Assembly (NCBI GenBank): GCA_963699755.1
Contig: CAVOVB010000010.1
Location: forward strand, 192,001 to 256,000
Direction: 5' to 3'
DNA from: an uncultured delta proteobacterium
Lineage (GTDB): Bacteria > Myxococcota_A > Polyangia > Polyangiales > Houyiibacteriaceae
Length of the DNA: 64,000 nucleotides
The position numbers were made by a program. Shown here one piece after another: positions 33,001-39,000 of this stretch. The stretch's first letter is position 1, and the number at the start of each line of letters is the position of its first letter.

Positions 33001-36000
33001 GGACAGATCGCGACTTTCCATCAGCTCAAGAGCCGAAGCGTCGTACGAGACGTGGGGCGCGTCATGGGTATGACGCCTGGCGAGGCAGGGTTGATCGCCA
33101 CGATGATTCCAGAGCCGGTCGGCGGAAAGAGCGTCGCAATCGGTGACGCGCTCGCGCAGGAAGCCCGACTCAAGACCGCCTACGAGCAAGACAAGCAGGC
33201 GCACGAGCTGCTCGATACGGCGCAAGCGCTCGAGAACCTCACTCGGCACGCGGGCATGCACGCAGCCGGGGTCGTGATCAGCGAGGGTCCGATCTGGGAC
33301 CACGTGCCGGTGTTCTGTCCCGAAAAGGACGTCTACGTCACGCAGTACCACAAGGATGACGTGGAGGCGGCGGGCCTCGTGAAGTTCGACTTCCTCGGGC
33401 TTCGAACGCTCACCGTCATCGACATCGCAACCAAGCTGATCGACAGGCGCCCCGACCGCCAGGGCGAGCCGTTCCGAATCGATCAAATCTCGATGGACGA
33501 CGATGCGACCTATGCGCTTCTGCAGTCGGGCGAGACGACCAACGTGTTCCAACTCGAGTCGAGCGGCATGCAGAACCTCTTCAAGCAACTTCGGCCCGAT
33601 CGGTTCGACGACATCGTCGCCGCAGTGGCTCTTTATCGCCCAGGCCCGATGGGTGCGCAGATGGACAAGGATTTCGTCCATCGCAAACACGGGCGGCAGC
33701 AGGTTCAGTACCCGCACCCCTCGCTCGAAGGCATCCTCCGGGAGACGCGCGGCGTCATCGTCTACCAGGAGCAGGTCATGCAAATCGCCCAGGAGATGGC
33801 AGGGTACTCGCTCGGTGGCGCAGATCTCTTGCGGCGCGCCATGGGTAAGAAGAAGGCCTCTGAGATGGACACGCAAAAGGCGATCTTCATCGAGGGCGCG
33901 ATGAGCCGCGGGCACACTCAGGAAAAGGCCGAGGAGGTTTTCGACTTGATGGCGTACTTCGCCGGGTACGGTTTCAACAAGAGCCATTCGGCGGCCTATG
34001 CGCTGATCACCTATCAAACCGCCTATCTCAAGTCGCACTACCCGGTCGAGTTCACCTGCGCGACGCTGACGGCCGACAAAGAAAAGATCGACAAGGTGGT
34101 TCGCACGGTCGCCGAAGCGCGCTCGATGGGGATTACGGTCTTGCCGCCCGACGTCAACGAATCTGAGATCGAGTTCACCGTGGTGTACAACCCGGATGAC
34201 GCGCAAGACGTCGCGCGGCTTCGTCACAAGCCGGTTTGCTACAATGGCGAGGTACACGACCCGATGGGGCCGAAGATTCGCTTCGGGCTCGGCGCGATCA
34301 AAGGCGTGGGCACCGGGGCGGTCGCGGCAATTCTCGAAGCGCGGCACGGGGCGCCGGAAGCCGACGGTGGCCCGGCGCACGAACGCCCCTTTGTCGACCT
34401 CTTTGATTTCTGCGCAAGGGTCGACCTGAGGCGGGTGAACAAGAGTGTGATCGAAGCGCTCGTCCAGTGCGGCGCGTTCGATACGGTGCACCAGGCCATC
34501 GACGTGCATCGCTCGCAGTCGTTCGTGGCGATCGAATCGGCGATCGAGCGTGGCAAGCGCATCCAGGCGGAGCGTTCGAGCGGCCAAGAGAGCCTCTTTG
34601 GCTTGATGGGCGGCGAGGAAGAAGCGCAGACCTACGAGCACCCGGGGGGGAGCTTTCCCGTACTCGATGCCTGGGATTCGCGCGATCAACTCTCTCGAGA
34701 GAAGAGCACGCTCGGTTTCTACGTGTCGGGGCATCCTCTCGACCGATATCGGGGCGAGCTGCTGCGCTTCTGCGACGCGACGACCGAAAGTGCGGCCCAG
34801 CTCGTCAACCACCGCGAAATCACCGTCGGCGGCACGGTCGAGGGCTACCGTGAGCGCCGGACCAAGATGGGGCACACGATGGCGTTCTTCCACATCGAGG
34901 ACGCCCTCGGTCGCATCGAAGTCATCGTTCGCCCGAAGTGCCTCGAAAAGCCGGGCATCCGGGAGGCGCTTCAGTCGGGCGAGCCCATCCTGCTGAGCGG
35001 TCGCGTGAAGCACGAACAGGATCGCAACGACGAAAGCGCCGCACCCGAAGCCAAAATTCTTCTTGAAGAGGCAACGCTACTGAGTGAAGCGCTCCAAGAG
35101 CGAACCACATCGATCACGGTGCGCCTCACCGTCGAAACCATCGACCGGAGCAAGCTCGACTCCCTCCGCTCGATGCTCGAGCAGTACCCAGGGCCCTGCC
35201 CGGTCACCCTCGAGCTCAACTCCCCCGGCGACTGGCGCGTCAACCTCGCGGAGACGGGCCTCTTCGTAGACCCGAGCGATGCCCTCCTCAGCGGTCTCGA
35301 ACGCCTCTTCGGTGCCAAAGTATGCGAGCTTCACTAGGCGAGAGATGGCCTGGGGGTGCTGATCTGGGACAAGACAAACTGATGAACCGCAGATTCGCCC
35401 CGAACAGCAACGCGCATGTCTCCTGAGCCAAAGACCGAGGAGGAGTTGCTGGCCCGCGCCTGGGACATCGCTGGGCTCACGCTTGGAAAGCTCGGGGCAC
35501 GGGTCGGCATCGACGTGCCAGACGAATCGGCGCGAGCGAAGGGAATCGCCGGGCAGATTCTGGAGAAGGCGCTCGGCGCAACGGCCGGGTCGCGGGCGGA
35601 ACCAGATTTCGTGACGCTAGGGATCGAGCTCAAGACGATTCCGCTCGACGCCACGGGCAAGCCGACGGAGTCGACCTTCGTCTGCTCGATCTCTCTCTCT
35701 GCCATGGCGGATACCGACTGGGAGCGAAGCACGGTCTTGAAGAAGTTGTCCAAAGTGCTTTTCATCCCCATCGAGGCCGCATCGAAGGTGCCACTGTGCG
35801 ATCGGAGGGTCGGACGCGCCTACCGCTGGTCGCCCAACGCGGAGGAGCGGCAGCTCATGCGCGCGGACTGGGAGCGCCTCGCCGACATGATCGCCGCCGG
35901 TGACGTCGAACAGATCACCGGGCACCTAGGTGAGGTCCTGCAAGTGCGTCCGAAGGCCCCTCACGGGCGAAGCCGGCGAAGGGCTCCGGACGAAGAAGGC

Positions 36001-39000
36001 GCAGTACAATGGACGATGCCGCGCGGCTTCTACTTGCGACCGGCGTTCACCCGAGCAGTTCTCGCCCGGCTCCAGGCCGAGGCGTGACATGGCCGCGAGC
36101 CCTGCACCGAGTAGGGTGGCAAGCCATCTCGAGGTCTCTCCCCCGGAGCGAGCCCGACGTGGAGGGCCTCGCCGAGCGTACGATCGGCGCTCTTCGAGAT
36201 CCGTTTGAGCCAGCCGTTTCGGTGCATGCGAAGAATCGCTCGCATCAAGAATGCCTTTGGTTGCAGGTCAGCCTTGCTTCAGTGTAGACGGACGCCGGCA
36301 ATCATCCAGACTCATCGGCGCGCACATATCGACATTGCATCACCGTCACCCCGCCGATCAGTCCACAAAGGGAGCTGGGGTCGGCGGATCGCTGCTGCGG
36401 TTGCGAGCGACCTCGGGTGAGAGCTCGTAGACGCGGGCGATGTCGTCCCAGAGCGTTGCACCGGGCTCGATGGCGTTCTTTCCCATGTACGGCGAAGCCG
36501 CGACGAGGGCGCGCCATACCAGGGGCCGAAATGGCGACAAGGCGAGCTTGCGAACACGAGACCGAGTCCGAAGCTCTTCCATGTATGCCCCTCGCGAGAT
36601 GCGCTGGAAGCCGAGCATCTGCTCGCTGGATTTCTCGTCCATCCAGCATTCGTAGAACCAGCCGTCCCTGATCGAAAGATCGGGGCTCGGTCGAAACGCC
36701 TTCTCCGGAGGCATGGTGAGGCCCACGGCGTCGAACACCTCGCCACGCAACTGACGCGCGGTCACTTTCCAAGACTGGTCCCCACCGATCAGAAACAGAT
36801 GGCCGTCGGGCTGCTGCGCTGCCGCCGAGGCGATCGCGCGCGCAGCATCGCGCACGTCGACCCCGTGCTCGGGCTGATCGAGCGACACCATGAAGATGAA
36901 GGGACGATAGCTGGGATGCTCGGGCATCAGATTGCGGAGGTCCATTACGGCGCCGAGCCGCAGCGAGCATTGGCGGAGGCCCGAATGGCGAAGCCAGCTC
37001 TCGACGGTGAGCTTCTGCAATCCGTAGTTGTCATCAGGCCGACAGGGGTCGGTCAACCGCCGAAACGGATCTCCCGGTGCACATGGGCCAAACGCTGCAT
37101 AGCTCGACACGAATACGAAGAACGCACCAGGCACGTGTCGCGTTGCCGCGTCGATCAGATGCTGGGCACCTCCCAGGTTCACCGATTCGGCCAGCTCGGG
37201 CTCTGCATAGGCAATAGGTGCCACGATCGCGGCGCAGTGGATGATGACGTCGGGTTTCACGAGCGCGACGAGTCGTGTCACCGCGCTCGGATTGGTCAGG
37301 TCACAGGCCTCGAACCGAACACCGGTCGGAATGCCCTCGGAATGGAGGTCGGTCGCCACCACCTCCATGCCCCGCCGTGCCAGCGCCCCGATCACGTAGC
37401 TGCCCACCTTGCCCGCAGCCCCCGTCAGTAGTGCAGTCCTGCTCATCGTGACCTCTTTCGCAGCCTCCTCGAAATCAAGCGTCACTCCGACGCAGGTTCT
37501 GAGCGCTTCTGTTCGATTTCGTCGTATAGGGCCTGTAGCTCGGCCTCTCCCAGGGTTTCCTTCTCCAACAGCAGTCGCGCCCCCTTCTCCAAGGTGTCGC
37601 GCTCCTTGCTGAGGACGGCGAGTGCCATGTCGAAGGCGCTCTGGACCATGGCCCGGACCGCGGTGTCGATCTCCCGAGCGGTGTCGTCGCTATACTCCCG
37701 CGTTCGAAAAGGAGAGACCCCTCCCCCCAAGAAAGCCGACGATTCGCTCTCATAGGAAACATGACCGAGCTCGGGCACCATCGCATAGCGAGTCACCATG
37801 CTGCGAGCAATGTCGGTCACCTTCGCTAGGTCGTCCGCTGCACCCGTGGACACATGATCGAAAACCAACTGCTCCGCAGCGCGTCCGCCCAGGAGGACGG
37901 CCATCTTTTCCTGCAGCTCTTCGCTCGTCATCAAGAAGCGATCTTCGGTAGGTCGCTGCATCGTGTATCCCAACGCGCCAACTCCTCGTGGAATGATCGA
38001 CACCTTGTGCACCGGATCGCAGTGCTCCGACACGAGGGCTACCAGCGCGTGACCCATTTCGTGGTATGCGACGACTTCGCGCTCACGTGGATTGAGGATA
38101 CGATTTTTCTTCTCGAGGCCAGCGACGATGCGCTCGATGGCAGCTGTGAAGTCCTCCAAGCTCACGCTGTCGGCGCCTCTTCGCGTGGCCACGATGGCGG
38201 CTTCGTTGACCAGATTGGCCAGGTCCGCACCGGTGAATCCAGGGGTGAGGGCCGCCACCTCTTCGAGATCAAGCTCGGCCCCGAGGGCTACGTCTTTCGC
38301 GTGCACCTTGAGAATCGCGGTTCTGCCGCGGCGGTCTGGCCGATCCACGAGCACCTGCCGATCGAACCGGCCCGCACGCAGCAGAGCGGGATCCAAAATC
38401 TCGGGGCGGTTCGTGGCGGACAGGAGCACGATGCCCGTCGACGAATCGAACCCATCGAGCTCGACCAGCAACTGATTGAGCGTCTGCTCCTTTTCGTCCA
38501 TGCCCCCCGTGAAAGGCTGGGCATTTCTCGCTCGGCCGAGGGCATCGAGCTCATCGATGAAGATGATGCAGGGCGCTTGCTGGCGAGCCTGGTCGAATAG
38601 ATCTCGAACGCGTGCCGCGCCTACCCCCACAAACATCTCGACGAACTCTGACCCGCTGATCGAAAAGAAGGGAACTCCTGCCTCCCCGGCGACGGCGCGA
38701 GCCAAGAGCGTTTTGCCAGTGCCCGGGGCGCCCACGAGCAAGATCCCTCTGGGCATACGAGCGCCGAGCCGGCCATAGGATTCCGGGTCCTTGAGAAAGG
38801 CGACGACTTCCTCGAGCTCTTGCTTGGCTTCGTCGACGCCGGCAACGTCAGAGAAGGTCACCCGCGTATCGGTCTCCATATAGACTTTCGCCCTGCTCTT
38901 GCCGACCGACATGAGCCCGGCGCCAGGGCCGCCGAGCCCTGCCATCCGGCGATTCAAGAAAAACCAAAAGCCCAAGAAGAGAAGCAAAGGCAACGACCAG

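What a model noticed while it worked through the whole genome (the two positions that open the first line are those of the whole stretch)
35416..36087. E. coli-type methyl-directed mismatch repair (MutH, Dam, nuclease-less MutL) in a myxobacterium
The genome encodes a MutH endonuclease next to dnaE, a Dam-family methyltransferase, MutS, and a MutL that lacks the DQHA(x)2E(x)4E nuclease motif of MutH-less bacteria; GATC is twice as frequent as expected. I read this as strand discrimination by nicking of hemimethylated GATC, the mechanism held to be peculiar to E. coli and close gammaproteobacterial kin, operating in Polyangiales. New would be a second large lineage with MutH-dependent repair, useful for asking how the two MMR designs replace each other.
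Evidence so far: g04822 (223 aa): Pfam MutH, NCBIfam 'DNA mismatch repair endonuclease MutH'; sequence has D-x6-E-L-K (DFVTLGIELK) as in the MutH active site (motif recalled). g04493 NCBIfam 'Dam family site-specific DNA-(adenine-N6)-methyltransferase'; second MethyltransfD12 gene g01293. MutS g03299. g04656 MutL 557 aa: no 'DQH' anywhere. GATC 38,930 observed, 18,323 expected from base composition. relatives.tsv: MutH family in 43 of 54 genus, 402 of 592 order, 660 of 1654 phylum and 7,576 of 189,784 bacterial species genomes. Paper search MutH+Myxococc*+methyl-directed MMR: none of the 6 listed (of 384) is on the subject.
(Added by a program. Inside this text positions count along the whole contig: contig position 192,001 is position 1 of the stretch shown here. 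"Call 12" and the like, gene names such as g00115 and contig names such as C1 are that model's own, and its searches are not shown. The text may have been shortened before it was handed on; [...] marks where a part breaks off. The agent that wrote the report below was given it as the finding of a first reader that could run no searches.)

Follow-up and report, generated by a model that had tools for sequence, protein, structure and literature searches.

The report
Methyl-directed mismatch repair genes in myxobacteria
This myxobacterium carries the gene set that E. coli uses to tell new DNA from old by methylation (the MutH nicking enzyme, a likely GATC methylase, and a MutL that has lost its own cutting site), and its relatives show intermediate stages between the two known repair designs, although no methylation or repair activity has been measured.

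Summary
The gene at 35416-36087 is a true, intact MutH: over both NCBIfam cut-offs, 48% identical to E. coli MutH, all twelve functional positions checked are identical, dN/dS about 0.08. It lies 78 bp after dnaE. The genome also has an orphan Dam-family methylase with the GATC-contact residues, MutS1, UvrD-like helicases, RecJ, XseA, and a MutL without nuclease motifs; SeqA and NucS were not found. The 'GATC twice expected' argument is a compositional artefact (O/E 0.92, second-order Markov). Two comparative patterns support methyl-directed repair. In 201 Myxococcota genomes, 75 of 76 with MutH carry a Dam or DpnA-like methylase, against 73 of 125 without. MutL nuclease motifs were lost at least five times, in 38 of 40 cases beside MutH. 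Correction: 38 of 49 MutH-bearing Polyangiales examined still keep the MutL motif, so the order is mostly dual-nuclease; the full E. coli design holds for this genus and several other branches. The independent-pairs test is not significant, the direction of transfer is unresolved (AU p 0.51), and no methylome or nicking data exist. Reviews I could read confine the system to gammaproteobacteria; the key survey (Putnam 2016) was unavailable.

The parts
35416..36087 (+). mutH, 223 aa single-domain GATC nicking endonuclease. D64/E71/K73 catalytic; K42, G43, E50, E85, F88, K110, R178, K180, Y206 match E. coli K48, G49, E56, E91, F94, K116, R184, K186, Y212.
   Evidence: AlphaFold2 model pLDDT 93.5, Foldseek TM 0.91 to 2AOQ and 2AOR; dN/dS 0.064-0.109 against 10 close relatives
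31705..35337 (+). dnaE, DNA polymerase III alpha (1210 aa), directly upstream of mutH on the same strand; the adjacency is conserved across the genus and several families of the order
   Evidence: NF004226 1361 bits; synteny
35338..35415 (.). 78-bp gap between dnaE and mutH with no terminator-like or sigma-70 promoter-like match; co-transcription is inferred, not shown. The partners lie outside the window: mutL G000:C10:44905-46578, dam G000:C8:98589-99467, mutS G000:C3:715885-718398.
   Evidence: partners

Best explanation
This lineage does methyl-directed mismatch repair as E. coli does. An orphan DpnM-like Dam methylase marks A in GATC. Behind the fork GATC is briefly hemimethylated. MutS1 finds the mismatch, and MutL, which here has no nuclease of its own, activates MutH. 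MutH nicks the unmethylated new strand at GATC, a UvrD-like helicase with RecJ or ExoVII removes the tract, and Pol III refills it. Shown: the genes, their functional residues, purifying selection, co-inheritance, and the nested co-occurrence pattern. Inferred: GATC methylation, MutH nicking, MutL-MutH activation and the pathway. Across Myxococcota the system appears in stages: methylase alone; methylase + MutH + motif-bearing MutL (most Polyangiales); repeated loss of the MutL motifs (this genus and other branches); and one family without MutH or Dam that keeps the motif-bearing MutL.
For: (1) True MutH, not Sau3AI: cut-offs, single domain, TM 0.91 to MutH against 0.70-0.73 to Sau3AI. K48, E91, F94, R184, Y212 and D70, named as GATC-contact, methyl-sensing or catalytic in PMC10940147 and PMC3848065 (passages), are all kept here. 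In 102 Myxococcota rows (with duplicates of some genomes) K48, G49, E56, D70, E77, K79 were invariant, and R184, K186, Y212 were present in all 100 rows covering them. (2) The methylase keeps the equivalents of EcoDam K9, L122, R124, P134 (K28, L144, R146, P156), has F for Y119, and has DPPY (residues from PMC10073500 passage). Its best solved relative is M1.DpnII (E 3e-67). No homologue of the pSRQ700 DpnII-type endonuclease is in the genome. (3) In 201 phylum genomes 75 of 76 MutH+ carry the Dam orthologue (62) or a DpnA-like methylase (13), the two never together; 73 of 125 MutH- do. Family f32, with no D12 gene in 5 of 5 tested, carries a conserved methylase (18 of 21) whose best plasmid match (57%) is the second methylase of the pSRQ700 cassette. 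(4) Of 115 MutL proteins, 40 lack the motifs and 38 of those are in MutH+ genomes. At least 5 (parsimony 8) changes are needed on a tree of the N-terminal domain. One of the two exceptions, G120, also lacks the dnaE C-terminus, an assembly gap. Family f52 looked like an exception but has a divergent MutH in 10 of 10. (5) Family f16 lacks both MutH and Dam in 15 of 15 and keeps DQHA..ER and CPHG in 15 of 15. (6) MutH and MutL distances co-vary over 34 genomes (Spearman 0.62, 0 of 2000 permutations). (7) Predicted MutH-MutL(NTD)2-ATP complex: weak support only, score 0.36, best of 3 controls 0.00, contacts agree at least 77%, partner pLDDT at least 76. Passes at or below 0.60 came from 18 of 157 solved and 2 of 215 mismatched pairs.
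Against: No methylome, nicking or mutator data for this lineage. The independent-pairs test is not significant (7 and 5 pairs on supported branches, median p 0.5), and the 2x2 counts are inflated by kinship. 38 of 49 MutH+ Polyangiales keep the MutL motif, so there MutH need not be the nicking enzyme. G213 lacks both MutH and the intact motif. G272 and G209 have MutH with neither methylase found at E 1e-40; in the order sample G049, G069 and G110 have MutH with no Dam hit (two are about 72% complete). SeqA, which prolongs hemimethylation in E. coli (recalled), was not found. GATC shows no enrichment, even spacing or origin cluster. Methylase specificity is inferred from homology; D12 relatives also read other sites (recalled). 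One marine study found no methylated motifs in three 'Deltaproteobacteria' MAGs (PMC8919816 passage); the one supplement row I saw is an unclassified 46% GC genome.
Confidence: 0.75

Rival explanations
1. MutH and Dam are a domesticated, unlinked restriction-like pair that cuts incoming unmethylated DNA (phage, prey DNA). Mismatch repair starts at existing nicks or with the MutL nuclease, and MutL motif loss reflects relaxed repair.
For: MutH cuts unmethylated GATC and is related to Sau3AI (PMC3848065 passage). This model also predicts MutH only beside a GATC methylase. 41 of 79 MutH+ genomes in the 115 set keep the MutL motif. The methylase is closest to restriction-system enzymes.
Against: It does not explain why MutL motif loss falls beside MutH in 38 of 40 cases. 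mutH is single-copy, co-inherited with mutL, linked to dnaE rather than to a methylase or defence genes, and matches no PADLOC model at E 1e-10. Y212 is kept.
Confidence: 0.13
2. MutH works in MutS/MutL repair, but the strand signal is not m6A in GATC from this Dam (another site or base, or too short a hemimethylated window without SeqA), so it works like but not identically to E. coli.
For: The methylase fails the gammaproteobacterial Dam equivalog (183 against 441); f32 uses another methylase class; f52 MutH has A or G for F94; no SeqA; GATC was only 31.9% methylated in Myxococcus hansupus, a distant relative (PMC4765838 passage).
Against: GATC-contact residues are kept on both enzymes, and both methylase classes that accompany MutH have their closest named matches in DpnII-type cassettes.
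Confidence: 0.09
3. The gene is contamination in a binned genome (9% contamination) or a recent, idle transfer from a gammaproteobacterium.
For: Contamination figure 9.04; 48% identity to E. coli MutH.
Against: It sits after the host dnaE in 41 of 42 close relatives (the other has only 82 bases upstream), groups with its genus and family in the trees, and has dN/dS about 0.08.
Confidence: 0.01

Closest known systems
E. coli / Haemophilus methyl-directed mismatch repair (MutS, MutL, MutH, Dam, UvrD; PDB 1AZO, 2AZO, 2AOQ, 2AOR)
   Same: MutH orthologue with all checked functional residues; MutL without nuclease motifs but with the segment aligning to E. coli residues 482-487 (clamp-binding, recalled); MutS1, UvrD-like helicases, RecJ, XseA; an orphan Dam-family methylase.
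   Different: Different phylum. The methylase is DpnM-like (230 bits to 2DPM, 155 to E. coli Dam). No SeqA, MukB/F or ExoI found and no GATC cluster at dnaA. mutH follows dnaE. Most MutH-bearing relatives keep a motif-bearing MutL, and one family uses a DpnA-like methylase.
MutL-endonuclease (MutH-independent) mismatch repair of most bacteria
   Same: MutS1 and MutL N-terminal ATPase; this is the state of family f16 and of 10 of 10 MutH-negative phylum controls.
   Different: In this genome D(Q/M)HA(X)2E(X)4E reads DRERAEALVRYD, and the AC(H/R) and CPHG motifs (names recalled) are gone.
Sau3AI-family and DpnII-type GATC restriction-modification systems
   Same: Shared fold (TM 0.70-0.73 to 4PXG); methylase 43% identical to the Dam-family enzyme of pSRQ700.
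   Different: Single 223-aa domain against about 465-aa two-domain Sau3AI; 60 bits against cut-off 300; nuclease and methylase unlinked; no DpnII-type endonuclease found.

Membership tests
MutH endonuclease | Scores above curated MutH equivalog cut-offs | tested here: met
   NF003458 273.9/243; TIGR02248 242.1/229.9
MutH endonuclease | Catalytic D70/E77/K79 and GATC or methyl-reading K48, E91, F94, R184, Y212 | tested here: met
   D64, E71, K73, K42, E85, F88, R178, Y206; residue roles
MutH endonuclease | Single-domain MutH fold | tested here: met
   223 aa; TM 0.91 to 2AOQ
MutH endonuclease | Nicks the unmethylated strand of hemimethylated GATC | not testable with these tools
   Needs a nicking assay
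Methyl-directed MMR (E. coli type) | Orphan Dam-family methylase with GATC-contact residues | tested here: met
   TIGR00571 over cut-off; K28, L144, R146, P156, DPPY; no DpnII-type endonuclease hit
Methyl-directed MMR (E. coli type) | Genome actually methylated at G(m6A)TC | not testable with these tools
   No methylome for this lineage found
Methyl-directed MMR (E. coli type) | MutL lacks endonuclease motifs | tested here: met
   Met in this genome and 7 of 7 genus members read; not met in 38 of 49 MutH+ order genomes
Methyl-directed MMR (E. coli type) | MutS1, UvrD-like helicase and ssDNA exonucleases present; no NucS alternative | tested here: met
Methyl-directed MMR (E. coli type) | MutL binds and activates MutH | tested here: inconclusive
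   Weak support, 0.36 against best control 0.00; such passes came from 18 of 157 solved and 2 of 215 mismatched pairs
Gammaproteobacterial Dam/SeqA package | Dam equivalog NF008152 | tested here: not met
   183 bits, cut-off 441
Gammaproteobacterial Dam/SeqA package | SeqA, MukB/F, GATC-rich origin | tested here: not met
   Not found; the origin was not located independently, only the dnaA region was examined
Sau3AI restriction endonuclease | Two-domain protein above NF040973 cut-off with linked methylase | tested here: not met
   60.4/300; neighbours are dnaE and an SDR

The most novel reading that the evidence does not exclude
Methyl-directed mismatch repair is an old, phylum-wide feature of Myxococcota and may have arisen there, with gammaproteobacteria receiving mutH by transfer. 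The phylum preserves living intermediates: dual-nuclease cells (MutH plus motif-bearing MutL), repeated independent loss of the MutL nuclease, a swap of the strand-marking methylase between unrelated Dam and DpnA classes, and one apparent reversion to MutH-free repair. All three rooted trees put the root among Myxococcota sequences, and the largest has the 28 gammaproteobacterial sequences as one clade inside them (support 86), but a tree with the two groups as sisters fits equally well (AU p 0.507).
Probability: 0.3. Interest if true: 0.85.

Novelty: new variant of a known kind. Interest (0 to 1): 0.68.

Why it matters
Reviews state that methyl-directed repair is restricted to E. coli-related gammaproteobacteria (PMC8235422; PMC8744996) and that MutL lacks its nuclease motif only there (PMC3848065). 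A second phylum with MutH in about 38% of sampled genomes contradicts that. It also supplies replicated natural transitions between the two repair designs, which makes testable the order in which methylase, MutH and loss of the MutL nuclease arrive, whether both nicking routes work in one cell, and whether the change can reverse. It predicts GATC methylation in most Polyangiales, which bears on introducing DNA into these natural-product producers.

Tried and rejected
GATC over-representation: rejected as evidence. Pooled mutL loci show no difference between Dam-less f16 (0.94), Dam+ genomes (1.00), methylase-negative controls (1.07) and E. coli (0.89). Gaps over 1 kb are no rarer for GATC than for four control words. 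No GATC cluster around dnaA-dnaN, at most 5 per 250 bp. Promoter and terminator scan found nothing. Direction of transfer: a first LG+G4 tree was distorted by long branches; the careful tree did not finish; the AU test was neutral. Independent-pairs test: too few pairs. The second D12 methylase on C1 was set aside as the MutH partner: it scores 20.9 on the Dam model. The f52 and f32 exceptions were chased and resolved; G213 was not. Some MutH-negative calls are assembly gaps: the contigs of G095, G068 and G100 end within 150 bases of the dnaE match, and G095 shows a weak match to the start of mutH there. Literature: ten searches listed no paper on MutH or methyl-directed repair in Myxococcota; only the top 20-40 of the larger result sets were seen. 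Putnam 2016 and 2021 were not held, so a mention there or in their supplements cannot be excluded. The Sandaracinus genome paper has 'methylome' as a keyword, but no motif data in the searched text or one of two supplements.
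Full report
The gene. Window 35416-36087 (+) encodes 223 aa. It passes both curated MutH models (273.9 against 243; 242.1 against 229.9) and fails the Sau3AI model (60.4 against 300). It is 48% identical to E. coli MutH (108 of 223), and its only sequence relatives among solved structures are MutH chains. 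An AlphaFold2 model (pLDDT 93.5) matches 2AOQ at TM 0.91 and Sau3AI at 0.70-0.73. The residues that PMC10940147 and PMC3848065 (passages) name for catalysis, GATC reading and methyl sensing (D70, K48, E91, F94, R184, Y212) are all kept. E56, E77, K79, K116 and K186, whose roles I recall, are kept too. dN/dS against 10 close relatives is 0.064-0.109. dnaE ends 78 bp upstream. This order holds in 41 of 42 close relatives (the other has 82 bases upstream) and in sampled loci of families f2, f3, f5, f6, f13 and f14, but not in f17, f22, f7, f8 or outside the order. Titles of the close relatives name Myxococcales, Polyangiales, Polyangiaceae, Sandaracinaceae and deltaproteobacterial MAGs.

Partners in the genome. 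The Dam-family gene on C8 passes TIGR00571 but fails the gammaproteobacterial Dam equivalog (183 against 441). Its closest solved relative is M1.DpnII (230 bits; E. coli Dam 155). It keeps the equivalents of EcoDam K9, L122, R124 and P134, with F for Y119 (PMC10073500 passage). The same motifs appear in 30 of 30 orthologue loci, 17 of which share its aminotransferase neighbour, and no DpnII-type endonuclease was found near them or in the genome. MutS1, two UvrD-like helicases, RecJ and XseA are present; NucS, SeqA, MukB/F and ExoI were not found (completeness 100%, contamination 9%). MutL has DRERAEALVRYD at the nuclease position and has lost the two later metal-binding motifs. It keeps the segment aligning with E. 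coli residues 482-487.

The GATC count. The numbers reproduce (38,930; 18,323), but the ratio is 1.07 under a first-order and 0.92 under a second-order model, and 1.20 (rank 27 of 256) against synonymous shuffles of 2,234 long ORFs. It is not evidence either way.

The order. In the same 121 genomes MutH was found in 88 (one, G087, is divergent), the Dam orthologue in 102 and MutL in 118. 84 of the 88 have Dam. Family f16 has neither MutH nor Dam in 15 of 15, confirmed for MutH with the Pfam model. I read MutL in this genome and 80 of the other 117 (G103 re-read). All 15 f16 proteins keep DQHA..ER and CPHG. Among MutH+ genomes 11 of 49 have lost the motif and 38 keep it; among MutH- genomes 1 of 32 has lost it, and that genome (G120) also lacks the dnaE C-terminus.

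The phylum. In 201 genomes of at least 90% completeness MutH was found in 76, the Dam orthologue in 124 and MutL_C in 195. Two apparent exceptions were chased. Family f32 has MutH in 14 of 21 and no D12 methylase in 5 of 5 tested, but 18 of 21 carry one conserved PF01555 enzyme whose best plasmid match is the second methylase of the three-gene pSRQ700 cassette; that this cassette is DpnII-like and reads GATC is recalled. Family f52 has motif-less MutL and mostly no NF003458 hit, but a divergent MutH in 10 of 10. In total 75 of 76 MutH+ genomes carry one of the two methylases against 73 of 125 MutH-; counting divergent MutH, 84 of 86 against 64 of 115. I then read MutL in 40 genomes chosen for weak or absent MutL_C scores, a set biased towards loss. 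Six were dropped: G267, G235 and G253 (no C-terminal hit in the locus), G186 (split), G151 (contig edge) and G279 (no MutL found). Twelve strong-scoring controls all had the motif. Over the 115 proteins: 38 MutH+ lost, 41 MutH+ kept, 34 MutH- kept, 2 MutH- lost (G087 counted as MutH-). On a tree of the N-terminal domain the loss needs 8 changes, 5 forced by supported branches. The independent-pairs test goes the predicted way (about 2.2 against 0.1) but is not significant. G213, G272 and G209 remain exceptions.

History. MutH and MutL distances co-vary over 34 genomes (0.62; nearest neighbours agree in 19 of 34), which fits mostly vertical descent. Myxococcota MutH proteins are as far from each other (46-53% mean identity) as gammaproteobacterial ones are (49%), so this is not a recent transfer. 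In a 91-row tree the 28 gammaproteobacterial sequences form one clade (86) inside Myxococcota, but separate sister clades are not rejected (AU p 0.507). The direction is open. f52, one truncated row (L255) and two unpublished genomes were left out of that tree.

Mechanism. The simplest account of a true MutH, a GATC-type orphan methylase that accompanies it across two unrelated methylase classes, and repeated decay of the MutL nuclease beside it is that MutH supplies the strand-specific nick, as in E. coli (pathway as described in PMC8744996, passages). The predicted MutH-MutL(NTD)2-ATP complex gave weak support (0.36, best control 0.00, contacts agreeing at least 77%, pLDDT at least 76; such passes came from 18 of 157 solved and 2 of 215 mismatched pairs). 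No solved MutH-MutL complex appeared in the sequence search, but E. coli's pair is a textbook interaction. A defence role explains the methylase pairing but not the MutL pattern. Methylation, nicking and repair are inferred, not shown.

Prior knowledge. NCBI and JGI pipelines already label these proteins MutH, so the gene is in databases. Reviews confine the system to gammaproteobacteria: PMC8235422, PMC8744996, PMC3848065 and PMC3424549, all seen as passages. Ten searches (listings only) showed no paper on it in Myxococcota. Putnam 2016 and 2021 could not be read; Putnam 2016 is recalled as describing the same steps (gain of Dam and MutH, loss of the MutL nuclease) within gammaproteobacteria. 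Methylation data seen: GATC 31.9% in Myxococcus hansupus (PMC4765838 passage); no motifs in three marine deltaproteobacterial MAGs (PMC8919816 passage and one supplement row); nothing usable in PMC5010890, PMC13340088, bioRxiv 10.64898/2026.06.24.734251 or PMC8307549 (passages; bioRxiv supplements closed). An earlier AI note (e1-1511278) saw MutH in another myxobacterium without checking partners; it is not independent evidence.

Verdict. A real, well-supported extension of a known repair system to a second phylum, with a different methylase lineage, no SeqA, and living intermediates. Confidence in the mechanism 0.75; interest 0.68.

Noticed in passing
L262-L265 (G248, G125, G184, G140; family f32): A conserved PF01555 methylase, 57% identical to the second methylase of the pSRQ700 cassette (the GATC specificity of that cassette is recalled), is found in 18 of 21 f32 genomes, which lack the Dam orthologue; it never co-occurs with Dam in 201 genomes.
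   Followed up: yes
L257-L261, L338 (family f52): A very divergent MutH (about 26% identity to all others) that keeps the catalytic residues and Y212 but has A or G for F94; found in 10 of 10 tested, with motif-less MutL in the 9 that could be read.
   Followed up: partly
L110-L189 (MutL of Polyangiales): The strict motif with the final E is found in 10 of 15 f16 genomes (no MutH, no Dam) and in none of the other order genomes read, which mostly have DQHAADER or DQHAAAER with D, H, A or another residue at the end. It may be early decay or neutral drift.
   Followed up: no
L310 (G213): MutL with DQHVAFEW and no CPHG, Dam present, MutH not found: a true exception or a missing contig.
   Followed up: partly
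L339 (G087): The only f17 genome without Dam carries a divergent MutH-family gene (28% identity) and a DpnA-like methylase on another contig.
   Followed up: partly
P0147: A 471-aa protein joining a DNA-3-methyladenine glycosylase to a full MutH, both over cut-off; source unknown, may be a gene-calling read-through.
   Followed up: no
(class of Vibrio salinus): 51 of 201 gammaproteobacterial genomes drawn evenly across the class carry MutH, many of them small (1.4-3 Mb), suggesting a wider spread in that class than reviews imply. The tally includes two unpublished genomes (G402, G324).
   Followed up: no
L040: A contig titled 'uncultured Coxiellaceae' has a mutH 75% and dnaE 82% identical to this genome's, in the same order: probably a mis-binned contig.
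   Followed up: no
G000:C10:41541-42563 and G000:C8:90962-91750: A second MutS-family ORF (792 aa open frame, ATPase part only matching) lies about 2 kb before mutL; a PF01555-like methylase (26% to the f32 enzyme) lies about 7 kb from dam.
   Followed up: no
window 41872-46527 (-): Anaerobic CO dehydrogenase cluster: Fe-S protein, catalytic subunit (TIGR01702 over cut-off), a CbiA/MinD-type ATPase and an FAD-dependent oxidoreductase.
   Followed up: no
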